Assembly (NCBI GenBank): GCA_963728565.1
Contig: CAVSLC010000011.1
Location: forward strand, 96,001 to 160,000
Source: an uncultured delta proteobacterium
GTDB lineage: Bacteria; Desulfobacterota; Binatia; UBA9968
DNA: 64,000 nt
Direction of reading: 5' to 3'
Shown here: one piece after another, positions 17,317-64,000 of the stretch
Layout: each line of letters starts with the position of its first letter
Numbering within the stretch: the first letter of the stretch is position 1
The notes under the pieces: model-generated
Databases searched by the model: none
What the model was told of the DNA's origin: nothing
The model's input: only the letters and a program-made list of their open reading frames with translations
Translations under genes and position numbers: made by a program

Positions 17317-17393
17317 TGGTTGCGGGGCCGGGATTTGAACCCGGGACCTCAAGGTTATGAGCCTTGCGAGCTGCCAGACTGCTCCACCCCGCG
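17317..17393 (-). tRNA. initiator tRNA-fMet (CAT)
   Basis: CGCGGGGTGGAGCAGTCTGGCAGCTCGCAAGGCTCATAACCTTGAGGTCCCGGGTTCAAATCCCGGCCCCGCAACCA; C1:A72 mismatch, encoded CCA. Confidence 0.96.
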
Positions 17394-45000: not shown

Positions 45001-46024
45001 ATGAGAAGAATAGTTCTTTGTTTTGACGGCACCTGGAACAAACCGGCCGATGAGAACTTGGCTGCCGACGAGCAGGTCGAAACCAACGTGTGCCGTTTTT
45101 ACAAGTCTGTCAACGGACGCCGGCGCAGACGGGGCGCAGCAGCTCAAATGGTACGATGAGGGCGTCGGCACAAAATGGTACGATCGGTTTATCGGCGGCG
45201 GGCTTGGAGTCGGACTCGAGAAGAATATTCTCGATGGCTACAAATTTCTCGCCCAAAAATATCGTGAAGGCGATGAAGTTTACGTGCTTGGTTTCAGCCG
45301 CGGCGCTTATACCGCGAGAAGTCTCGTTGGGATGATTCGAAACTGCGGCTTGGTGAAGAACAAGCAGTTGCCTTTACGAATCGCCATGGCGTATGGCATT
45401 TACCGCACCCGAGACGATGGCCCAGATTCGCCCACAGCAGTGCAATTCAAAGACCGGTTCTCGCGCGAAATTAAGATAAAGTTTCTGGGAGTTTGGGATA
45501 CTGTGGGGGCGCTCGGCATCCCATTGGATTTGTTGAAGCGCTGGAATATGCATTTTTATGAGTTTCACGATACCCGACTCAGCACGATCGTTGAAAACGC
45601 CTATCACGCCATCGCCGTCGACGAGCACCGAGTCGATTACGATGCCTGCCTGTGGAATCCCGAAGTAAAGCCGGAGCAGGCTTTGCAACAACGATGGTTT
45701 CTTGGCGCGCACTGCGACGTCGGCGGCGGCTACAAAGATCGCCGTTTGTCCGACCTCGCGCTGCGCTGGATGCAAGACAACGCCGCCGCCGCGGGGCTGG
45801 TACTTGACTCGGTCAATATCGGGGCAGATAACTACCGCGGCGCCTTTACCGATTCTTACGGGGAATTCCTCGGTGGCGTGTACGCCAAGAAAAACCCGCG
45901 TCACTATCGCGTCATTGGCGCAAGTCGATTCGGCAATGAAAGTGTGGATGAATCGGTGGGCAGGCGGCGCAAAGAAGATCGCGATTATGAGCCGCAGAAT
46001 GACGGGCTACCGCCGCTGACGTGA
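45001..46024 (+). CDS. DUF2235 (Tle1-like alpha/beta hydrolase) protein, apparent 1-bp frameshift near 45113
   Basis: MRRIVLCFDGTWN..TNV in one frame; YDEGVGT, GFSRGAYTAR, GVWDTVG, AVDEHR, WFLGAHCDVGGG in the next. Confidence 0.85.
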
Positions 46025-46562: not shown

Positions 46563-48485
46563 ATGGGCCTTTGGCAAGTAGCTCCGTATGGCTCGTGGAA
46601 GTCGCCGATTGCCGCGGACCTTGTCGCTCGCGGTGAGGTTGGGCTCGAGCAGGCAAAGATCGATGGTGATGATGTGTACTGGATCGAACGACGGCCTCAG
46701 GAAGGCGGGAGAAAGGTCGTTGTGCATTATTCACCCGACGGCACAGTCACCGATGTGACGCCTTTGCCATTCAACGCTCGGACGCGGGTGCACGAATATG
46801 GCGGCGGAGACTTCGCGGTTTTAGCCGGAACGGTTGTGTTCGCGAATTTTGCCGATCAGCGGCTCTATCTGCAACGTGCCGGGAGCGGGCCCAACTCTCT
46901 GACGCCGGCGGGAGAGCTGCGTTATGCAGATGGTGTGATTCACCCGAATGGAAATCGGTTGTTTTGCGTGCGCGAGGACCATAGCGTCCCTGGCCAGACG
47001 GTTAATACCTTGGTGAGCGTCGAGCTCGATCACGAAAACTCGGGAAGAGTTTTGGTTTCTGGAAATGACTTTTACTCTTCGCCACGGTTGAGCCCGGACG
47101 GTTCGAGACTCGCTTGGCTGACGTGGAATCATCCCGCCATGCCGTGGGACGGTACTGAACTTTGGGTCGGGGAGTTGAGCCCCGACGGTTCGGTGAATCA
47201 GGCAAGACGAGTTGCAGGCGGGCCGGCGGAATCCATTTTTCAGCCGGAGTGGTCGCCGGGAGGGACGCTTTACTTTACTTCTGATCGCACCGGCTGGTGG
47301 AATCTATGTCGCTGGGAAGACCGAGTAGAAGCAGTGTGCCCGATGGAAGCGGAGTTTGGTCAGCCGCAGTGGGTATTCGGCGGTTCGCTGTACGCCTTCT
47401 CCGAATCAAAAATTATCTGCAGCTATTCAAAATCCGGCTGCTCGTACTTAGCCGAGATCGATACCACGACGGGCGCCCTGGCGTCATTGGAAGTACCGTA
47501 TTCGGCAATTTCGCGGGTTCAAGCAGCGGCTGGTCGAGCCGTGTTGATCGCCGCATCTGCGACTGAGCCAACCTGTGTTGTCGAGGTGAACCTAGCTACG
47601 CGCGCTCTCAAAGTACTGCGCCGCTCCCGAGAGGCCGAGCTAGAGCCCGAATACTTCTCCACGCCGCGGCCCCTGGAGTTTCCGACCGAGAACGGCGAGA
47701 CGGCCCACGCAATTTTCTATCCGCCGCAGAATCGCGACTACGTGGGCGGTGAAAATGAAAAGCCGCCGCTGCTGGTGATGAGTCATGGCGGACCAACCTC
47801 GGCCGCCTCGACGTCGCTGCAATACTCAGTTCAATATTGGACCAGTCGAGGGCTTGCTGTGCTCGACGTCAATTACCGAGGCAGCTCGGGCTATGGGCGC
47901 GCCTATCGAGAACTGCTGAAAGGCGGGTGGGGAATCGTCGATGTCGATGACTGCGTCAACGGCGCTCGATATTTAGCAGAAACCGGCCAGGTCGATGGCA
48001 ACCGGCTGGCGATCAGAGGGGGCAGCGCCGGAGGCTACACGACGCTATGCGCTCTGACTTTTCGCGACACGTTCAAAGCCGGGGCCAGCCACTATGGCAT
48101 AAGCGATTTGGAGGCGCTGGCCAAGGACACGCACAAATTCGAATCGCGCTATCTTGACGGGCTCATCGGTCCCTATCCAGAGCGGCGTGATCTCTACATC
48201 GAACGATCGCCGATTTATTTCACCGAGCGTCTGGCTTGTCCGATGATTCTGTTGCAGGGCTTGGAAGATAAGATTGTGCCGCCGAATCAAGCGGAGATGA
48301 TGGTCGAGGCAGTGCGTGCCAAGGGACTACCGGTGGCGTATCTTCTATTCGACGGCGAGCAGCACGGGTTTCGCAAGGCGGAGAATATCAAGCGAGTCCT
48401 GGAGGCCGAACTCTACTTCTATTCGAGAGTATTCGGGTTCGGTTTGGCCGATGCCGTCGAGCCGGTACAAATCGATAACCTTTGA
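46563..48485 (+). CDS. S9 family peptidase
   Basis: APYGSWKSPI, HGGPT, GGSAGG, QGLEDKIV, GEQHGFR. Confidence 0.93.
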   Translation: MGLWQVAPYGSWKSPIAADLVARGEVGLEQAKIDGDDVYWIERRPQEGGRKVVVHYSPDGTVTDVTPLPFNARTRVHEYGGGDFAVLAGTVVFANFADQRLYLQRAGSGPNSLTPAGELRYADGVIHPNGNRLFCVREDHSVPGQTVNTLVSVELDHENSGRVLVSGNDFYSSPRLSPDGSRLAWLTWNHPAMPWDGTELWVGELSPDGSVNQARRVAGGPAESIFQPEWSPGGTLYFTSDRTGWWNLCRWEDRVEAVCPMEAEFGQPQWVFGGSLYAFSESKIICSYSKSGCSYLAEIDTTTGALASLEVPYSAISRVQAAAGRAVLIAASATEPTCVVEVNLATRALKVLRRSREAELEPEYFSTPRPLEFPTENGETAHAIFYPPQNRDYVGGENEKPPLLVMSHGGPTSAASTSLQYSVQYWTSRGLAVLDVNYRGSSGYGRAYRELLKGGWGIVDVDDCVNGARYLAETGQVDGNRLAIRGGSAGGYTTLCALTFRDTFKAGASHYGISDLEALAKDTHKFESRYLDGLIGPYPERRDLYIERSPIYFTERLACPMILLQGLEDKIVPPNQAEMMVEAVRAKGLPVAYLLFDGEQHGFRKAENIKRVLEAELYFYSRVFGFGLADAVEPVQIDNL

Positions 48486-48594
48486 TTCTGGATTGGCTTT
48501 ATTGCCTGGTGCGCGGCCCGCGCGGCCAGCCCGGTAGGTCCCCGTTGTTACGTTCTTCAGAGCACCGGTTCACGAAGGCCGCAAGGAGCTTCGA

Positions 48595-49290
48595 ATGATG
48601 CAAGCGGAAACCAGGACGATACTTGAGCATTTACTTGTGGCTCTCGCAGCAGGCGCACTGATCGGCCTCGAGCGGAGCTACCACGGCCGCCCGGCGGGTT
48701 TCCGGACCCACACTTTGGTCTGCATCGCCTCCAGCACTTTGATGTTGGTGACGATGTACCCCGGACGATGGTTTCCTGATCCTGTATCGGGCAGCGTTAG
48801 TGTAGATCCGACACGCATGGCGCAAGGCATCATGACCGGCATTGGCTTTCTCGGCGCCGGGGTAATTTTCAAAGAGGGGTTGACCGTACGCGGCCTGACG
48901 ACCGCGGCTTCAATCTGGATCACCGCAGCAATCGGCATTCTCGCCGGCATTGGCTTCTACTTTCCTGTCATCGTCACCACTGTGCTAACGTTGGGCACTC
49001 TTTCCGTATTCAGATGGATCGAAGCCAAGATGCCCGTCCAGTTCTACGCTCGCTTAGAAGTGAAACTCCCTCGCGATGCGGTGGACTCTGAAGAAGAACT
49101 GCAGCGCTTGATCGGCGAGCACGGCTTTACGATTGCCAATATGAACTATCATCATGATAAAAACATGGGATTCTCCGAGTACGGCATGGTGATTCGAACC
49201 GACAATCCTGCCAATGTGCAGCGCCTGGTGAATACGCTGCATAACATGGTCACGGTTCAGGAGTTCAAAATGTCCCCGATGGGCGACTGA
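48595..49290 (+). CDS. MgtC/SapB family protein
   Basis: IGLER..AGFRTH, GIGFLGAGVI, GLTTAASIW. Confidence 0.92.
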   Translation: MMQAETRTILEHLLVALAAGALIGLERSYHGRPAGFRTHTLVCIASSTLMLVTMYPGRWFPDPVSGSVSVDPTRMAQGIMTGIGFLGAGVIFKEGLTVRGLTTAASIWITAAIGILAGIGFYFPVIVTTVLTLGTLSVFRWIEAKMPVQFYARLEVKLPRDAVDSEEELQRLIGEHGFTIANMNYHHDKNMGFSEYGMVIRTDNPANVQRLVNTLHNMVTVQEFKMSPMGD

Positions 49291-49746
49291 TCGGGGCTCC
49301 TTATTTCGGCATCTCGGCTCTCGATCGTTGCTTCAAAAAGAGGGCATTATGCGAAAAGTTTTTAGTCCCGGTGCCGGGCGGCTTTTTCTATCGAGCCGTC
49401 GTCCACGAGCCGATAACACGTCGCATTGTTCGCTTAGGTGTTCGCCACTTGCGGGCTACGCGCCGTTTCCGGGCGAAGCAGAAAGACAGGCTAAAGGTGA
49501 AAGAGCGGGAGCGGAGCCACCGTAGGTATGCAGCAAAAGAGGGACGGAAATCGGGTGCAAAGACGAGGATCGAGAGAAGGCCACGGACAAGATACCAACC
49601 TAATTCCGACGGTGATTCTCTACCGCTGGTGTCTTCTGCATTGCGAAGAATCGCTCAAATATGCGTCATAAGCAGTCAGAATTCCGCCAGAGAAAGTGTT
49701 CAATACTATACAGACAACACATCTGCAATTACGGTAATAGTCGAAA

Positions 49747-49983
49747 ATGCAGCACCACTATAAAGATCATACTGTTCTGATCAGCACCTGGGCTAGACTT
49801 GAGCCTTACGGGTACACGCCAGAGTATCGCGTCAGTACGAAGGCTCGCATGGTCCAAACCCTCAAGCTAAACCAAGTATTTGCTACCAGGGAAGAAGCTG
49901 AAGGGTGTGGCTTGCAGGCGGCGAAGACATGGATTGACCACAAGATTCTGCTAGGATTTATGTCACGTACGTCTGTCGCATAA
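49747..49983 (+). CDS. small hypothetical protein
   Basis: 78 aa ORF with plausible composition (FATREEAE..AAKTWID); stop codon lies inside the dif-like site. Confidence 0.5.
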   Translation: MQHHYKDHTVLISTWARLEPYGYTPEYRVSTKARMVQTLKLNQVFATREEAEGCGLQAAKTWIDHKILLGFMSRTSVA

Positions 49984-50000
49984 TGCAGGTCATGCGATGT
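49973..50000. repeat. dif-like 11-6-11 site, copy 1
   Basis: CTGTCGCATAA TGCAGG TCATGCGATGT. Confidence 0.55.
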
Positions 50001-50309
50001 GGGCGAGATCACTATTGAGGTTTAAACGGTATCAGGAAGACAAACCAGCGAAATGGCTACCGTCGCCGTTACCTTTCCTTTTTACAGTTGCTCCGACCAC
50101 CTCTCTGCCCTGCTTCCTTTGACTTTCGAGAATGAAGTCAAGCGAATTTTTACAGTTGGCTTCCTGACCATAAGCATTCAAAGGTTCGATTTCAATTTTC
50201 TTATCGTTGATGTAGTGCTGTTGCCACAGAACCCACGCGCAGAGAGAAAACCAGTGAAAAGTGTTTTCATGAGACCTCCCTGGTGTTTCGTCTTGCATAT
50301 AATGCGCCT

Positions 50310-50708
50310 TTAATCGACGCGCCTTCGCTTGGTGGTTTTCTTCCTTTTCTCCTGAGCTGCGGCGTTTATATCAGCGATCTCTCGGCGAAGTTTCTCAAGC
50401 TCTGGTTGCTTCTTCTCCAACTCAATACTCGCGTGGGTACTCTTTATCGGTTCTTTGCGCCACATAACAACCGTCGTGACTATGAATCCGATGAGCGTTG
50501 TAAAAGAAATTACAAAGAAGCCAAGTGCCAGCACCATCTCGGCCTTAAGAGGCGAGTACATCCTATTATCATCAGGCAGAGGATAACCACTCGGAGCATC
50601 CGGCATCAGCGCAACAGCTAATAGAATCGCGGAGACTAAAAATGATCCGACAAACCCCCATCCGAACCAATGGCGGTATGTCTTGATTCGTTCCACAGAC
50701 AAGGTCAT
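50310..50708 (-). CDS. two-TM membrane protein with coiled-coil/basic tail
   Basis: two hydrophobic helices then ELEKKQPELEKLRREI. Confidence 0.6.
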   Translation of the reverse strand: MTLSVERIKTYRHWFGWGFVGSFLVSAILLAVALMPDAPSGYPLPDDNRMYSPLKAEMVLALGFFVISFTTLIGFIVTTVVMWRKEPIKSTHASIELEKKQPELEKLRREIADINAAAQEKRKKTTKRRRVD

Positions 50709-50725
50709 TTCACTGCCCTCGGTTA

Positions 50726-50753
50726 AGGTCGCATAATGCAGGTTGTGCGACTC
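50726..50753. repeat. dif-like 11-6-11 site, copy 2
   Basis: AGGTCGCATAA TGCAGG TTGTGCGACTC; 16 bp identical to copy 1. Confidence 0.6.
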
Positions 50754-50760
50754 GCCCGGC

Positions 50761-51555
50761 CTACCCGCGCGGCTTTTTCTTTAATAGTTGGTCAAAGTCC
50801 TTTATATCTATCGCCTCCCTTCCGAAGGCCGTCGCAAACGCTGATTTTTGAGAAACTAGGTAGTTGAATAGTTCTCGGTCACAAAAAATGGTAGCGGCAA
50901 GAATAAAAGTAGTAATGCCCCGGTCGAAGTAGTACCAGATTTGTTTTTCATGAGGCTGCATTTGGTCGGTTCCGAGCATACTATAGACATAGAAGCGGGG
51001 CGGATTGCCGCCATACATCTCCATAATCTGCGGTGAAGCACAGTGTACATACCCCGAGAAAGCCTTGGTAAGCGTCCTAGCAACTTCCTTGCTGTCGCTT
51101 GGATTACCGACTGCCAGTTTAATCTGAGCGATATAAGCTTGAATTCTTTGCCGTGGTACCATTAGTCGCTTTTGAATTGAGTTGAAGGGGCTCTCGGGAT
51201 CATCGAATTCTTCTTCGTAAAATGATTCGAGAAACAACTTATGCCACTTACTTTCCAAGTCACCATGCAAGATTCCATAGAATAAGAACAGCACGTCCTC
51301 TGCAAGCTCGTCCAGAATACGTTCAATGGCACCATGTTCCTGAAGTAGTCCATTTCTTAAAAGCAGAAGGGCGGCACGCAGCCCTGTAATAATCCGGGCA
51401 AGTTTTTGAACTATAGCTTGTTGAGCTGTTCGCTCCACATAGCGAAAGACGAAACTGCCGGCAAAGGGTACTTTCTGGGGTGGCGGCACTTTACTCGCCA
51501 CCTTCTCCAACGTAATCGCCATGTCGTGTAACAACTGTTCGTAAGCGTCGGCCAT
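50761..51555 (-). CDS. helical hypothetical protein, DUF5677/HEPN-like
   Basis: R...E helix (AIERILDE) and SGYVH motif; lower GC than surroundings. Confidence 0.55.
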   Translation of the reverse strand: MADAYEQLLHDMAITLEKVASKVPPPQKVPFAGSFVFRYVERTAQQAIVQKLARIITGLRAALLLLRNGLLQEHGAIERILDELAEDVLFLFYGILHGDLESKWHKLFLESFYEEEFDDPESPFNSIQKRLMVPRQRIQAYIAQIKLAVGNPSDSKEVARTLTKAFSGYVHCASPQIMEMYGGNPPRFYVYSMLGTDQMQPHEKQIWYYFDRGITTFILAATIFCDRELFNYLVSQKSAFATAFGREAIDIKDFDQLLKKKPRG

Positions 51556-51746
51556 ACCGGCCCGTATATCATAGCGCCTGATGCATGAGCTAGACGTTTA
51601 TCCCCACCGCCTTGCCGAACGGCTTGGTAGAATGGAGCATGAAACACGAACAGCAAGTCACCACCTTCGAACTATCGAAAGGCCTTAAAGAGCTTCCCGT
51701 TTGACTTCAGGTTGAGACAAACCGCCAGCAGAGTTAAACTTTATAC

Positions 51747-51896
51747 ATGGCCGTTTATCTCGCCAGAAATTGCCCCAAGTGCGGTAGCTACTTCGGCGTA
51801 GTGATCGCTAAGCCAAGTGATAGTGGCTACCAGCCGATTCACGGGCGCTGCGGCATCTGCGGTTACGAAATCGCCTGGGCGCTCTTCACCACGTAA
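51747..51896 (+). CDS. 49-aa zinc-ribbon microprotein
   Basis: MAVYLARNCPKCGSYFGVVIAKPSDSGYQPIHGRCGICGYEIAWALFTT; two CxxC; ends 9 bp before the ligase start. Confidence 0.6.
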   Translation: MAVYLARNCPKCGSYFGVVIAKPSDSGYQPIHGRCGICGYEIAWALFTT

Positions 51897-51905
51897 CCCG
51901 TCCAA

Positions 51906-52901
51906 ATGCCCAAAGCACAAAAGACGAAACCCGCTACAAGAGCGGCTACGGTTCAGTTTGTCGAGCCAATGTACGCTCAGCTCGTCCAGCAGCTACCCGA
52001 AAGCAAAGACTGGCTGTATGAAGTTAAGTTCGATGGCTATCGCTGCCTTGCTGGAAAAGACGGCACAGGAGTTACGCTGTGGTCTAGGCGCGGCAATGAT
52101 CTGACGGCGCAATTCCCGAATATTGCTAAAGCGTGCGAACAGCTCCCACCCCGTACACTTATCGACGGTGAACTCGTAGCCATCGACGAGAACGGGTGTA
52201 TTTCATTCAATCTGCTTCAACATCATCGCTCGCGAGCACAAGCATTGCTGTTCTATGCGTTTGATGTGCTGATTTATCGCGGGATCAACCTGCTTAACGA
52301 ACCGCTCTCCAAACGCCGCGAAGTCCTGAGCGACCTGATCAAACCGCTCATCCAAAGAGCAACCGCAATCTCGTTATCAGAGAGCATCGATGCAACTTCC
52401 GCCGAACTGATCCAAGTCGTCAAAGAGTTTGGCTTCGAGGGTGTGATCGCCAAGCGCAAAGACTCCTTATACGAATACGGCAAGCGCAGCGGCGCATGGC
52501 TGAAATACAAGGTCAACAAATCACAGGAATTCGTTATCGGTGGGTATACGCCGGGCAATCCGCTCGATGCAGTGATCGTCGGTTACTATGACGGCGATAA
52601 GTTCATCTATGCAGCTAAAGTGAGAAATGGCTTCGTCCCGCAATTGCGTCGTGATGTCTGGCAGAAGTTGAAAGGATTGGAGATCGCCACCTGTCCGTTC
52701 GCCAACCTACCTGAGAAGAAACGCACGCAGTTTTCGCTCACCCGCGAAGAAATGAAGAACTGCATCTGGCTCAAGCCGCAGTTAGTTGCGCAGGTTGAGT
52801 TCACGGAATGGACACCTGATGGTCACCTACGGCACTCGAAGTTCGTTGGATTGCGAGATGATAAAGACCCACGTTGGGTAGTGAAGGAGGAACGCGGGTA
52901 A
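51906..52901 (+). CDS. ATP-dependent DNA ligase (stand-alone LigD ligase domain)
   Basis: EVKFDGYR, IDGELV, YAFD, EGVIAKRKDSLYE.GKRS..WLKYK, QVEFTEWT..GHLRH. Confidence 0.92.
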   Translation: MPKAQKTKPATRAATVQFVEPMYAQLVQQLPESKDWLYEVKFDGYRCLAGKDGTGVTLWSRRGNDLTAQFPNIAKACEQLPPRTLIDGELVAIDENGCISFNLLQHHRSRAQALLFYAFDVLIYRGINLLNEPLSKRREVLSDLIKPLIQRATAISLSESIDATSAELIQVVKEFGFEGVIAKRKDSLYEYGKRSGAWLKYKVNKSQEFVIGGYTPGNPLDAVIVGYYDGDKFIYAAKVRNGFVPQLRRDVWQKLKGLEIATCPFANLPEKKRTQFSLTREEMKNCIWLKPQLVAQVEFTEWTPDGHLRHSKFVGLRDDKDPRWVVKEERG

Positions 52902-53009
52902 CGGAATAGAAAGACCGTGAGTGTTAGTTTTCTTTTTACGAGACACCGGTTATCGAGCCAGACTTTGATCTTGGGTCCATTTGAAGCCGTTACGGTGCTC
53001 AATCTCTTA

Positions 53010-53327
53010 CTATTGCCCTGTGAGCACGGAAAGTGACGCGACCTGCTTCCCCTCGGTATCGTAAACAAACAGGGCCTTACCACCTGCTGCCTTCCAAGTC
53101 TGCGCCCAATTATTCACCAACAACTCTTTTTCGGACTTCTTCAGAGCATCCCACTCATTATTCACATGTATGTCTACAGAGCCAGAGACCCATCCGCTTC
53201 TTTCGACTTTCGCTACGATCGGCTGTTCTTCAAGCCAAGACATAGCGCCCCCATTGCTCAACTGTGCCTCCGAATACGCCGTCACTAATAGGATCGACAA
53301 TGTAAGACATACGAACAGTTTTTTCAT
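53010..53327 (-). CDS. small exported hypothetical protein
   Basis: signal peptide MKKLFVCLTLSILLVTAYSEA; GGAGG RBS. Confidence 0.65.
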   Translation of the reverse strand: MKKLFVCLTLSILLVTAYSEAQLSNGGAMSWLEEQPIVAKVERSGWVSGSVDIHVNNEWDALKKSEKELLVNNWAQTWKAAGGKALFVYDTEGKQVASLSVLTGQ

Positions 53328-53643
53328 AGTTCCTCCAAACAGGCGAGATTATGCCTATCCCGTTTAAAAATGAGCGCGGGGCGAGACGGGAACCCTGAAC
53401 CGCAATGAAGATGCCAATGAGATTTGCGGAATGATTTGTTTATTCAGAGGAAAGTTGCGAACGATAGGCCGCAAATTACGCTCGCAATAGGCCCCGCGTA
53501 CGAAAATTCGTAGCCACAGATCGTTATTGTTGCTTCCTGAAAATTTTCAGTATAGTCGCGCGAATAGACGACTCACCGCCTGAACAGTACAACGGGTTCT
53601 TAGCCGATGGCTCAGTCACGATTGCCCATCCACACTACAATTC

Positions 53644-54006
53644 GTGGCAGTCGGTTTCGCGGAGGATCGTGGCGGCAACAGTATTGAGGTGCGCTTCAAT
53701 GGGAGGAAAGAGAACCTGCACTCGCTGTGGGACACCGCGCTTGTTGAGTTGGAGCAAGGCACTCCCGCAGAGATCGCGGCCCGAATCCAAGCTGCGGTCA
53801 CCGACGATGATCGGCAGCAATTGGAGCAAGGATACCTGCGGATTGGGGCTTGAGTCGTGGGGATAGTCAGGGCGCAAGGTATCGGCTACCTGCATCTGGC
53901 GAGATTACTGCAAGCTAACGTCGAAGCGGCACTCGCTGTGATTCGGACTCGGTTAGCGCACGCGGGAGCGTGACTGGGATTGCTGCTTAATCAGAACTTT
54001 CAGTAA
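53644..54006 (+). pseudogene. S1/P1 nuclease C-terminal remnant
   Basis: DRGGN..NLHSLWD..WALES..RLAHAGA*LGLLLN with frameshifts and an internal stop. Confidence 0.75.
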
Positions 54007-55488: not shown

Positions 55489-55711
55489 CTCTACTCGGCT
55501 TCGCCTTCAGCCGCCGCCTTGAGGCGGCGCTGGCGAACGGCATCGTGCGAGATCCTCTACCAATTTACGGGTGTCTTCCCAGCCGACACACGCGTCTGTG
55601 ATGCTTAAACCGTAGACGAGTTCTTTGCCCGGCATCAGATCTTGACGGCCTGCTTTGAGATGACTTTCGATCATAACGCCGAAGATGCGAGCATCGCCGT
55701 CGGCAATTTGG
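55489..55711 (-). pseudogene. displaced 3' fragment (~73 codons) of DAHP synthase; direct repeat of 62969..63190
   Basis: QIADGDARIFGVMIESHLKAGRQD..; 10 substitutions and 1 indel versus the intact gene. Confidence 0.92.
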
Positions 55712-55819
55712 GTTGCTTCAAAAAACCTTTGCGAAAAGTTTTTAGTGCGTGGGATGGGTGTCCGTCTGAAACACTTATGCTCGTCGTTTCGCAAAGAGGG
55801 AGGCCAGTGATTAACCGAA

Positions 55820-62970: not shown

Positions 62971-64000
62971 CTACTCCGCTTCGCCTTCAGCCTCCGCCTT
63001 GAGGCGACGCTGGCGAACGGCATGTGCGAGGTCCTCTACCAACTTGCGAGTGTCTTCCCAGCCGACACACGCGTCTGTGATGCTTAGACCGTAGACGAGT
63101 TCTTTGCCCGGCATCAGATCTTGACGGCCTGCTTTGAGATGACTTTCGATCATAACGCCGAAAATGCGGGCATCGCCGTCGGCAATTTGGCTGGCAACCT
63201 GACGACCGACCTCGACCTGTTTTTCCGGTTCTTTGCCGCTGTTGCCATGGCTGCAATCGATCATAATTTTCGCCGGTATGCCGGCTTCCGCCATGCCCTT
63301 GGCCGCTGCATCGATGTTTTGTGCATCGTAATTGGGATTACGACCACCCCGCAGAATGACATGGCAATCTTCGTTGCCGGTGGTTGAGACGATCGCCGAA
63401 TGACCGTCCTTGGTTACGGAAAGAAAATGATGCGGAGCTTGAGCGGCGCGGATGGCGTCAACGGCGATGCGGACGTTACCGTCAGTGCCGTTTTTGAAAC
63501 CGACGGGACAGGATAGGCCGGAAGCAAGCTCGCGGTGCACTTGACTCTCGGTGGTGCGCGCGCCGATGGCTCCCCAGGAAACCAGGTCAGCGACATATTG
63601 CGGGGTAATCATGTCGAGAAACTCGGAACCCGCCGGAACCGCCATTTCGTTAAGATCGAGCAACAATCGACGGCCAATACGCAAGCCGTCGTTGATACGG
63701 AAACTGCCGTCGAGTTGGGGGTCGTTGATCAGCCCCTTCCAACCGACAGTGGTGCGAGGTTTCTCGAAATACACACGCATCACCAGCAGTAGATCACTGC
63801 TGAGTCGGTCCTTAACTTCTCTGAGCTTGCCCGCATACTCTTTAGCGGCGTTAACGTCGTGAATCGAACATGGGCCCAATATAACCAGGAGACGGTCATC
63901 AGCACCGTGCAAGATGCGGTGGATCGCTTGGCGCGTCTGGTATACCGTCTGCGCGGCCTTGCTCGTTATCGCGATATCGCGCAGTACTTGCGCCGGCGGC
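62971..64000 (-). CDS. aroG: 3-deoxy-7-phosphoheptulonate synthase, class I-alpha (AroF/G/H), 5' end outside window
   Basis: GPCSIHD, RVYFEKPRTTVGWKGL, IGARTTESQVHRE, DCSHGNS, SITDAC; paralog identity F/G/H cannot be resolved. Confidence 0.93.
   Translation of the reverse strand, partial: PPAQVLRDIAITSKAAQTVYQTRQAIHRILHGADDRLLVILGPCSIHDVNAAKEYAGKLREVKDRLSSDLLLVMRVYFEKPRTTVGWKGLINDPQLDGSFRINDGLRIGRRLLLDLNEMAVPAGSEFLDMITPQYVADLVSWGAIGARTTESQVHRELASGLSCPVGFKNGTDGNVRIAVDAIRAAQAPHHFLSVTKDGHSAIVSTTGNEDCHVILRGGRNPNYDAQNIDAAAKGMAEAGIPAKIMIDCSHGNSGKEPEKQVEVGRQVASQIADGDARIFGVMIESHLKAGRQDLMPGKELVYGLSITDACVGWEDTRKLVEDLAHAVRQRRLKAEAEGEAE

What the first reader, a model, noticed from the sequence alone, without database searches (positions are those of the whole stretch)
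49973..50753. Symmetric dif-like sites delimiting a gene cassette
Seen: two directly oriented 28-bp sites 753 bp apart with an identical 6-bp spacer, GTCGCATAA-TGCAGG-T(C/T)(A/G)TGCGA(T/C). Both lie at gene boundaries: one supplies a stop codon, the other sits between two genes. A third half-site (TTTCGCATAA-TGCCCT, minus strand near 49340-49356) is inside the element's left motif. Known: the 11-6-11 layout and the CGCATAA arm resemble the XerC arm of dif, but here both arms are XerC-like with no TTATGTTAAAT XerD arm. Inference: a pdif/integron-like cassette system run by a single tyrosine recombinase.
Basis: partly seen in the sequence, partly recalled or inferred. Interest (0 to 1): 0.7.

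Follow-up and report, generated by a model that had tools for sequence, protein, structure and literature searches.

The report
Conserved 24-bp gene-junction box
A rare, sharply bounded 24-base near-palindrome marks the joints between swapped accessory genes in a few soil Binatia genomes; it is real, but it is neither the chromosome's dif site nor an integron site, and how it works is still open.

Summary
Two direct copies of GTCGCATAA-TGCAGG-TTGTGCGAC lie at 49975-49998 (three mismatches) and 50728-50751. The genome has only one more copy, and conservation covers 24 bp, not 28.

The same box occurs in 3 related genomes (7 in 4 including this one) and 17 metagenome contigs. On the window's minus strand it reads GTCGCACAACCTGCAT-NN-TGCGAC. 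In 15 of 21 contexts it lies 1-11 nt after the stop codon of a co-directional gene, from about 13 families, some defence-like. It lies 17-24 nt before the start of a small membrane-protein gene ("B") in 11 of 11 B loci. Both flanks assort independently, with homology ending at the box.

The dif/integron reading is not supported. The lineage's real dif, on another contig, has a different spacer and a canonical XerD arm. The genome also has a real integron with about 80-nt attC sites. No recombinase lies near any box.

My best reading (0.35) is an intergenic punctuation element that also acts as a short-homology recombination patch. A trans-acting site-specific recombination site (0.3) is not excluded.

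The parts
50728..50751 (-). Box copy 2, canonical. On the minus strand it reads GTCGCACAACCTGCATTATGCGAC. It lies 9 nt after the stop of the 264-aa gene and 19 nt before the ATG of gene B.
49975..49998 (-). Box copy 1, degenerate in this genome (3 mismatches) but perfect in the near-identical metagenome contig L061. It lies between a decayed minus-strand ORF and the convergent gene A, whose TAA stop falls inside it.
50310..50708 (-). Gene B: a 132-aa protein with predicted membrane helices, a coiled-coil-like ELEK...LRREI stretch and a basic tail. It matches no Pfam or NCBIfam family. A box or box variant precedes every B locus found.
50752..51597 (-). Variable module of 846 bp holding the 264-aa gene 50761-51555. 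It is missing in one contig of soil run X1, which joins 50751 directly to 51598, and different DNA replaces it in relatives.
49747..49983 (+). Gene A: a 78-aa member of a multi-copy small-protein family (weak CV_2116-domain likeness). Here it is convergent on box copy 1; in other loci it lies downstream of B.
50032..50298 (-). An 88-aa open frame between B and box copy 1. It is not kept as a frame in the 92%-identical contig L061 (indels and a stop), so it is probably a decayed small gene.
49344..49354 (+). Inverted 11-nt half-match to the box (GCATTATGCGA), inside a conserved sequence downstream of mgtC. It is probably partly coincidental.

Best explanation
The box is a discrete 24-bp cis element of lineage-specific accessory (partly defence-like) gene clusters. 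It sits in the short gap after an upstream gene's stop codon and, where gene B is present, just ahead of B's ribosome-binding site, always in one orientation relative to transcription. I read it as intergenic punctuation. It would be transcribed within X-box-B messages, able to form a short imperfect hairpin (a 6-bp GUCGCA/UGCGAC stem, an inner mismatch, a CCUGCA loop), and read by an unidentified sequence-specific factor as DNA or RNA. That factor would set the boundary between the upstream gene and B by processing, attenuation or a roadblock. Because the identical 24-mer stands at many loci, it would also serve as a short patch of homology where recombination joins unrelated modules. This would produce cassette-like shuffling without a dedicated recombinase, as described for the PeSL regulatory cassettes of T4-type phages (PMC2839356, abstract read). 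Shown: the position, orientation, sharp boundaries, linkage to B, flank shuffling and absence of a linked recombinase. Inferred: transcription through the box, the trans factor, and homology-driven exchange.
For: Conservation is confined to 24 nt in 21 contexts. The orientation relative to genes is fixed: a co-directional open frame of 45 aa or more stops 1-11 nt before the box in 15 of 21 non-redundant contexts (17 of 26 sites). The B start lies 17-24 nt after the box in 11 of 11 B loci. B loci found by protein alone carry the box in 6 of 6 cases: 4 canonical, 1 with a 1-nt deletion and 1 diverged. The sequence upstream of the box is not conserved, so B shows no conserved promoter of its own, and the consensus scan found no excess of promoters (4 found against 2.7 expected). 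Both flanks assort independently. B-type downstream flanks at 83-91% identity have at least 5 unrelated upstream flanks, and the HEPN-like 163-aa gene plus box is shared by G005 and L035/L050 at 85% with unrelated downstream DNA. No recombinase is near any box: for whole-genome PF00589 hits in G000 and G005, for about 6.5 kb around the third copy and three G005 places, and for window ORFs, none of which gave a recombinase family.
Against: The RNA hairpin is weak (-6.2 kcal/mol alone) and no compensatory changes support it, since the stem never varies. No U-tract follows it, so it is not an intrinsic terminator. Twelve of the 21 contexts have no B downstream, and for most of the 13 non-B sites checked no RBS-preceded co-directional gene starts within 200 nt. 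Two contexts lie between convergent genes. Sixteen contiguous invariant bases are more than most protein-binding or hairpin elements need. Twenty-four bp is at the lower limit for homologous recombination (recalled). No trans factor has been identified.
Confidence: 0.35

Rival explanations
1. The box is a simple core-type site (9-6-9) for a tyrosine recombinase acting in trans: the host XerC (or XerC/D), or an enzyme not yet assembled or identified. Exchange within the invariant centre swaps whatever lies upstream and downstream. This is a weakened form of the first reader's idea.
For: The box has two inverted arms around an invariant asymmetric 6-bp centre. In the TAA variant the left arm GTCGCATAA matches the host dif XerC-side arm GTCTGATAA at 7 of 9 positions, and the conserved arm GTCGCACAA matches at 6 of 9 (my comparison of sequences). 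Homology between relatives ends at the box edge. The variable dinucleotide at box positions 17-18 follows the downstream module while positions 1-16 are invariant, which fits a crossover 5' of position 17. Two direct copies flank a 729-bp segment in the window and in L061. Diverse genes end right at the site, as in cassette systems.
Against: No recombinase is linked at any locus. All non-Xer tyrosine recombinase genes found in G000 are fragments or carry stops, though the assembly is only 80.55% complete. There is no XerD-like arm, and the spacer matches the dif spacer at 1 of 6 positions. Most loci have a single site, never more than two. The 846-bp module abuts one box only, and the 'empty' contig joins 50751 to 51598 with no second site. 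The module shared by G005 and L035 has no site at its 5' boundary.
Confidence: 0.3
2. The box is a low-copy REP-like or IS200/IS605-type hairpin that a Y1 (HUH) transposase recognises as single-stranded DNA and mobilises. That would account for identical copies with sharp edges in unrelated extragenic places just 3' of genes.
For: It is an extragenic imperfect palindrome with a constant mismatch and loop, sharply bounded, next to stop codons. Y1_Tnp (PF01797) genes were found in 5 of 5 box-bearing genomes searched.
Against: There are only 3 copies per genome, against more than 100 usually reported for REPs (PMC2817692, abstract in the search listing). The constant linkage to gene B across B types with about 50% protein identity is not what a recently spreading repeat predicts. 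No box-like hairpin lies beside the one Y1 gene inspected, G000:C7. The box starts with GTCG, not the GT[A/G]G I recall for REPs. Y1 genes were not compared with box-free genomes.
Confidence: 0.1
3. The box is a double-stranded DNA operator for a dimeric transcription factor that controls gene B and a few other genes.
For: It has dyad-symmetric ends GTCGCA/TGCGAC, there are few sites per genome, and it always lies upstream of B. The diverged G001 variant keeps GTCGC...GCGAC.
Against: There is no conserved promoter around it. The centre is invariant and asymmetric, and the orientation relative to transcription is fixed. Some sites lie between convergent genes (window copy 1 and G005:C3) or have no downstream gene. 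No regulator gene is adjacent in any locus.
Confidence: 0.1
4. The box is a member of a known system: a pdif/dif-module site or an integron attC.
For: It has the 6-bp spacer layout and lies 3' of cassette-sized genes.
Against: The defining features were tested and not met: see the membership table.
Confidence: 0.03

Closest known systems
pdif sites and dif modules of Acinetobacter plasmids (XerC/XerD)
   Same: Both are short sites with two arms and a 6-bp spacer. They stand between small accessory modules that are found in different combinations, no recombinase gene is linked, and exchange is thought to need identical spacers (PMC13141974, passages read).
   Different: pdif sites have distinct XerC and XerD arms resembling the host dif, and modules are bounded by inversely oriented sites that alternate C/D and D/C. 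The box has two mutually inverted arms, no XerD-like arm, a spacer unlike the host dif, direct orientation where two occur, and usually one site per locus.
Integron attC sites (including clusters without an integrase)
   Same: The box lies a few bases after the stop codon of diverse small genes, in one orientation relative to the gene, and some of those genes are defence-like.
   Different: attC sites are bipartite imperfect palindromes with RYYYAAC/GTTRRRY boxes (lengths and consensus recalled). This genome's own attC sites are about 80 nt and have exactly these boxes. The box is 24 bp, has no such boxes, is on another contig than intI, and never forms long arrays.
PeSL regulatory cassettes of T4-type phages
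   Same: Both are conserved intergenic regulatory motifs in regions rich in small non-essential genes. Recombination between copies shuffles modules and can give mini-circles without a dedicated recombinase (PMC2839356, abstract read; PMC4122927, search listing only).
   Different: PeSLs are a strong promoter plus a terminator stem-loop in phage genomes. The box has no recognisable promoter or terminator, is shorter, and is chromosomal. It was found in 0 viral contigs.
REP elements and RAYT transposases
   Same: Both are extragenic imperfect palindromes close to the 3' ends of genes with sharp boundaries, and Y1 transposase genes are present in the same genomes.
   Different: REPs usually number more than 100 per genome (PMC2817692, abstract in the search listing). 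The box has 3 copies per genome and is tied to one gene family.

Membership tests
Xer/dif-type site (dif, pdif) | Distinct XerC and XerD binding arms (11-6-11) resembling the host's chromosomal dif | tested here: not met
   Host dif is TCTGATAA-GATATA-TTATGTAAAC (C13:166129-166152), found in 28 of 31 related genomes. The box has no XerD-like arm and its spacer matches at 1 of 6 positions. Its arms match the XerC-side arm at 6-7 of 9. Conservation ends at 24 bp.
Xer/dif-type site (dif, pdif) | Modules bounded by inversely oriented sites that alternate C/D and D/C (PMC13141974) | tested here: not met
   The two window sites are direct. Most loci have a single site.
Xer/dif-type site (dif, pdif) | Recombined by XerC/XerD | not testable with these tools
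   This needs binding and strand-exchange assays.
Integron attC | Bipartite imperfect palindrome with R''/L''...L'/R' boxes (RYYYAAC...GTTRRRY), tens of nt long | tested here: not met
   The box is 24 bp. B's RBS and ATG follow within 17-24 nt, which leaves no room for a distal half. Genuine attC sites with GCCTAAC...GTTAGGC exist elsewhere in the genome.
Integron attC | Array next to intI/attI, or a cluster of several attC sites | tested here: not met
   intI (truncated; TIGR02249, 288.9 bits) is on contig C19, whereas the boxes are on C11. There are at most 2 boxes per locus.
Integron attC | Lies just 3' of the cassette ORF, in the same orientation | tested here: met
   15 of 21 contexts have a co-directional stop 1-11 nt upstream.
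REP/RAYT | High copy number, dispersed through the chromosome | tested here: not met
   There are 3 copies in 4.53 Mb, all on one contig.
REP/RAYT | The same palindrome flanks a Y1 (RAYT) gene | tested here: inconclusive
   Only 1 Y1 locus (G000:C7) was inspected, of 4 matches in G000. No box-like hairpin was found there.
PeSL-like regulatory cassette | Promoter plus terminator stem-loop | tested here: inconclusive
   A consensus sigma-70 and terminator scan shows nothing at the boxes. The promoter types of this phylum are unknown.
PeSL-like regulatory cassette | Copies lie at the joints of shuffled modules | tested here: met

The most novel reading that the evidence does not exclude
The box is the core site of a previously undescribed simple-site gene-exchange system in Binatia. 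It would have two XerC-like arms around an invariant TGCAGG centre and be used in trans by the host XerC or an unknown recombinase. The system would swap small, partly defence-like genes in front of a fixed B platform, and would run in parallel with, and independently of, the classical integron present in the same genome.
Probability: 0.25. Interest if true: 0.8.

Novelty: new variant of a known kind. Interest (0 to 1): 0.5.

Why it matters
Conserved short sequences that sit exactly at the joints of shuffled accessory genes are how integrons and dif modules were first recognised. Here such a joint occurs in an uncultured soil phylum. It lies next to genes with TIR, HEPN and DUF4145 domains, in a genome that also has a classical integron and a normal dif. 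If the box is a recombination site, it would be a third, independent way of exchanging small genes. If it is a regulatory hairpin that recombines by homology, it would extend the phage PeSL principle to bacterial chromosomes. Either way it gives a precise 24-mer to test by binding assays, and a marker for finding these islands in soil metagenomes.

Tried and rejected
- **Rfam:** a scan of 47000-54000 at E up to 1 gave no match.
- **tRNA-linked integration:** the only tRNA in the window is at 17317-17393, far away.
- **CRISPR-like solitary repeat:** my k-mer scan found no CRISPR-type arrays in G000.
- **Guide-like partial copies:** 10-12-mers of the invariant 16-mer occur at chance level elsewhere in the genome.
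- **Sigma-54 and sigma-70 readings:** I rejected these by eye because of spacing and the variable positions. The consensus scan gave no signal.
- **RNA fold:** it shows only a weak hairpin and no consistent pairing with B's ribosome-binding site.
- **Viral origin:** the box pattern matched 0 viral contigs. The B profile gave only one weak partial hit, 40 residues.
- **Atlas search for B:** there were no named relatives; the best score was 0.83, below the useful range.
- **Pfam and NCBIfam:** no family for B, the 264-aa protein or the 163-aa protein.
- **Public reads:** all four runs laid were contigs. Bins from 49381 to 50271 had no cover, apart from one short X3 contig piece at 49900-49933. 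The proposed 753-bp circle or a box-to-box deletion could therefore not be tested, and run X8 gave nothing.
- **Relatives of the HEPN-like 163-aa gene without a box:** the search found only the one broken copy in G005, so the test 'does the gene travel with its box' could not be made.
- **The half-site as a recombination relic:** downgraded.
- **Dropped rows:** of the 41 metagenome loci I kept 17 (18 sites) that share ATGCAGGTTGTGCGA. I set aside 24 with other right arms as chance or unrelated conserved sequences. Of the 10 genome-contig loci I kept 4. G090 (a mismatch in the centre) was also set aside.
- **Timed-out script:** one search was replaced by a BLAST search.
- **No structure or complex prediction was run.**

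Full report
**1. The observation**

The window holds two direct copies of a 24-bp near-palindrome.
- Copy 1 is at 49975-49998 (GTCGCATAATGCAGGTCATGCGAT).
- Copy 2 is at 50728-50751 (GTCGCATAATGCAGGTTGTGCGAC).
- They are 753 bp apart, start to start. The 100 dinucleotide-preserving shuffles gave no match at all.
- Copy 1 contains the TAA stop of a 78-aa ORF, gene A (49747-49983, + strand).
- Copy 2 lies 9 nt from the stop of a 264-aa ORF (50761-51555, minus strand) and 19 nt from the ATG of a 132-aa ORF, gene B (50310-50708, minus strand).

The assembly that holds the window is 4.53 Mb in 28 contigs and 80.55% complete. It has exactly one further copy, at C11:53846-53869, about 92 kb away on the same contig. 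In a position-weight scan three hits scored 32-40 bits and the next best scored 20.

**2. Distribution**
- Among 61 related genomes, 4 carry the box, this one included. The three relatives hold 3, 1 and 1 copies.
- Among 90 genomes of the family, 5 do. The fifth has a mismatch in the centre, and I treat it as chance.
- A scan of about 185,000 species genomes gave 10 loci. Four come from two relatives, one titled Candidatus Binatia bacterium. The other six come from unrelated taxa with different right arms, and I read them as chance.
- The metagenome scan gave 41 loci. Seventeen of them (18 sites) share the full right half ATGCAGGTTGTGCGA. I set the other 24 aside.
- Contig L061 repeats the window's two-site arrangement. 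There copy 1 is perfect, so the window's copy 1 looks like a decaying copy.
- No viral contig has the box.

**3. Anatomy**

Read on the strand on which the neighbouring genes are transcribed (the window's minus strand), the box is GTCGCACAACCTGCAT-NN-TGCGAC. Across 21 non-redundant contexts, information content is about 1.9 bits per position inside the box. The exceptions are positions 17-18 and, to a lesser degree, 1, 7 and 24. It falls to about 0 immediately outside the box. The element is therefore 24 bp long, not 28, and sharply bounded.

**4. Relation to genes**
- A co-directional open frame of at least 45 aa stops 1-11 nt before the box in 17 of 26 sites, which is 15 of 21 contexts once near-duplicates are removed.
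- The six contexts that lack this are window copy 1 (33 nt), G005:C8 (its upstream gene is degraded), and four contigs where no such frame was found; two of these have under 150 nt upstream of the box.
- These upstream genes belong to about 13 unrelated families. They include two with a CAP12/Pycsar-type TIR domain, one with DUF4145, a weak HEPN match, and a 163-aa protein with an RNxxxH motif.
- Gene B starts 17-24 nt after the box in 11 of 11 B loci.
- B loci found by protein search alone have the box in 6 of 6 cases: four canonical, one with a 1-nt deletion, and one diverged to GTCGCACACCGTGCAACGCGAC.
- B was found only in this genus among the 61 relatives (4 of 61 genomes) and in none of 400 other genomes of the phylum. 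It has 230 relatives at E <= 0.001 among the 8,000 candidates scored, largely from metagenome sources, and none of the 120 listed has a family.
- Twelve of the 21 contexts have no B downstream. For most of the 13 non-B sites checked, no co-directional gene with a ribosome-binding site starts within 200 nt.
- Two contexts, window copy 1 and G005:C3, lie between convergent genes.
- Gene A belongs to a multi-copy family present in 29 of 61 related genomes. It is not specific to the box (the tally includes the unpublished genomes G012 and G018).

**5. Mosaic joints**
- Between the window and the syntenic locus of relative G005, homology covers 48609-49368 and 50310-50752, and it stops at the outer edge of box copy 2.
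- An all-against-all comparison of 500-nt flanks shows B-type downstream flanks at 83-91% identity joined to at least five unrelated upstream flanks.
- The reverse also occurs. An upstream module, the 163-aa gene plus box, is 85% identical up to the box edge in G005 and L035/L050, with unrelated downstream DNA.
- That shared module starts 1 nt before the gene's ATG, and there is no box at that boundary. Gene order in these islands therefore also changes at joints that have no box.
- In public soil contigs, one contig of run X1 joins 50751 directly to 51598, skipping the 846-bp module with the 264-aa gene. Only 24 letters, the box itself, fit on the shorter side. Several contigs of X4 break at 51595-51598. 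No second box or half-box is visible at 51598.
- The 88-aa frame between B and copy 1 is broken in L061.

**6. Not dif**

I ranked ATAA-N6-TTAT sites against a recalled E. coli-type dif consensus. This pointed to C13:166129-166152, TCTGATAA-GATATA-TTATGTAAAC. That sequence occurs, mostly once, in 28 of 31 related genomes across three families, with 0 control hits. Two of the 28 are the unpublished genomes G012 and G018; without them the count is 26 of 29. This is the lineage's dif.

The box shares 6-7 of 9 positions with the XerC-side arm of this dif. It shares nothing convincing with the XerD arm, and 1 of 6 spacer positions. pdif modules, as described in PMC13141974 (passages read), need distinct C and D arms and alternating inverted sites. 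The box meets neither condition.

**7. Not an integron site**

The genome has a real integron on contig C19.
- An ORF scores 288.9 bits against the integron-integrase model TIGR02249 (cut-off 265). It covers only profile positions 1-219 of 315, so it is truncated.
- Beside it are at least three attC sites of about 80 nt with textbook GCCTAAC...GTTAGGC-type boxes and strong folds.
- A second integrase-like fragment lies on C5. That reading is mine, from the sequence.

**8. No linked recombinase**
- PF00589 gives 9 matches in G000, none on C11. Apart from two Xer-like genes they are fragments or carry stops.
- G005 has 13 matches, and none lies within 20 kb of its four box places.
- Pfam scans of ORFs within about 6.5 kb of the third G000 copy and of three G005 places found none. 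Pfam scans of window ORFs and of 74 ORFs from the other box-bearing loci also gave no recombinase family, apart from one rve fragment.
- Serine recombinases were not found in G000, G006 or G001.
- Y1 (HUH) transposase genes occur in all five box-bearing genomes searched. The one locus I inspected has no box-like hairpin.

**9. Interpretation**

Four facts must be explained together:
- (a) a 24-mer that is identical in many unrelated contexts and sharply bounded;
- (b) a fixed orientation and close apposition to the stop of the upstream gene;
- (c) constant linkage to B at a fixed distance, across B types that share only about 50% protein identity;
- (d) no linked recombinase, one site per locus as a rule, and an 846-bp module that abuts a single site.

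| Reading | Fits | Does not fit | Confidence |
|---|---|---|---|
| Punctuation element that recombines by short homology, like phage PeSL cassettes (PMC2839356, abstract) | b, c, d and the mosaic joints | weak on a; no factor known | 0.35 |
| Dedicated or Xer-type site-specific system | a, b and the architecture | d | 0.3 |
| REP/HUH-type hairpin | a, b | c and the copy number | 0.1 |
| Plain duplex operator | c | b, and the sites without a downstream gene | 0.1 |
| Member of the pdif or attC families | little | defining features not met | 0.03 |

I place the punctuation reading first. The RNA hairpin it invokes is weak (-6.2 kcal/mol) and shows no covariation.

**10.

The box loci lie in a region where gene content turns over.
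- A roughly 40-bp imperfect direct repeat at 49327-49366 and 55712-55746 is present only twice in the genome. It brackets 6.4 kb.
- In G005 the corresponding sequence is continuous.
- A 3' fragment of a DAHP-synthase gene at 55507-55794 duplicates the end of the full gene at 62971-63912.
My comparisons agree with that.
- The box is absent from the mgtC locus of G006.

**11. Verdict**

The element appears to be undescribed. My two literature searches bearing on it were 'Binatia' with 'integron' (0 papers) and the pdif search, and neither describes it. I did not search further. I rate interest at 0.5.

Noticed in passing
outside the window: G000 contig C13:166129-166152: The lineage's chromosomal dif site, TCTGATAA-GATATA-TTATGTAAAC. 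It is found, mostly as a single copy, in 28 of 31 related genomes across three families (two of these genomes are unpublished).
   Followed up: yes
outside the window: G000 contig C19, about 245605-250950 (locus L117 12606-17951): A classical integron: a truncated integron-integrase gene (TIGR02249, 288.9 bits, profile positions 1-219 of 315) followed by at least three attC sites of about 80 nt with GCCTAAC...GTTAGGC-type boxes. A second integrase-like fragment lies at C5:214808-214969.
   Followed up: partly
window 49327-49366 and 55712-55746: A roughly 40-bp imperfect direct repeat, present only twice in the genome, brackets 6.4 kb (genes A and B, the 264-aa gene, the ligase, a secreted 105-aa protein and an ABC substrate-binding protein). 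In relative G005 the sequence is continuous, so the region has been rearranged.
   Followed up: partly
window 55507-55794 (minus) and 62971-63912 (minus): A 3' fragment of a DAHP-synthase (aroG-type) gene duplicates the end of the full gene 7 kb away. Between them lie large ORFs of 581, 486, 211 and 856 aa; the first three match no Pfam family.
   Followed up: no
window 51906-52901 (+), with a 49-aa zinc-ribbon-like ORF at 51750-51899: An ATP-dependent DNA ligase (LigD-type ligase domains) borders the variable region. In relative G005 the orthologous ligase is split by an insertion.
   Followed up: no
outside the window: locus L117 6610-10256 (G000 contig C19): Clusters of 9-nt TTGAAC/GTTCAA-containing repeats lie in at least five short gaps between co-directional ORFs upstream of the integron integrase. 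They are unexplained.
   Followed up: no
locus L004 (G020:C543), compared with L039: The TIR-domain gene upstream of the box in G020 is disrupted by an internal inversion of about 316 bp relative to its metagenome homologue.
   Followed up: no
window 45023-46024 (+): An ORF with a T6SS Tle1-like phospholipase catalytic domain (PF09994, E 1.9e-68) lies next to a MAPEG-family membrane protein.
   Followed up: no
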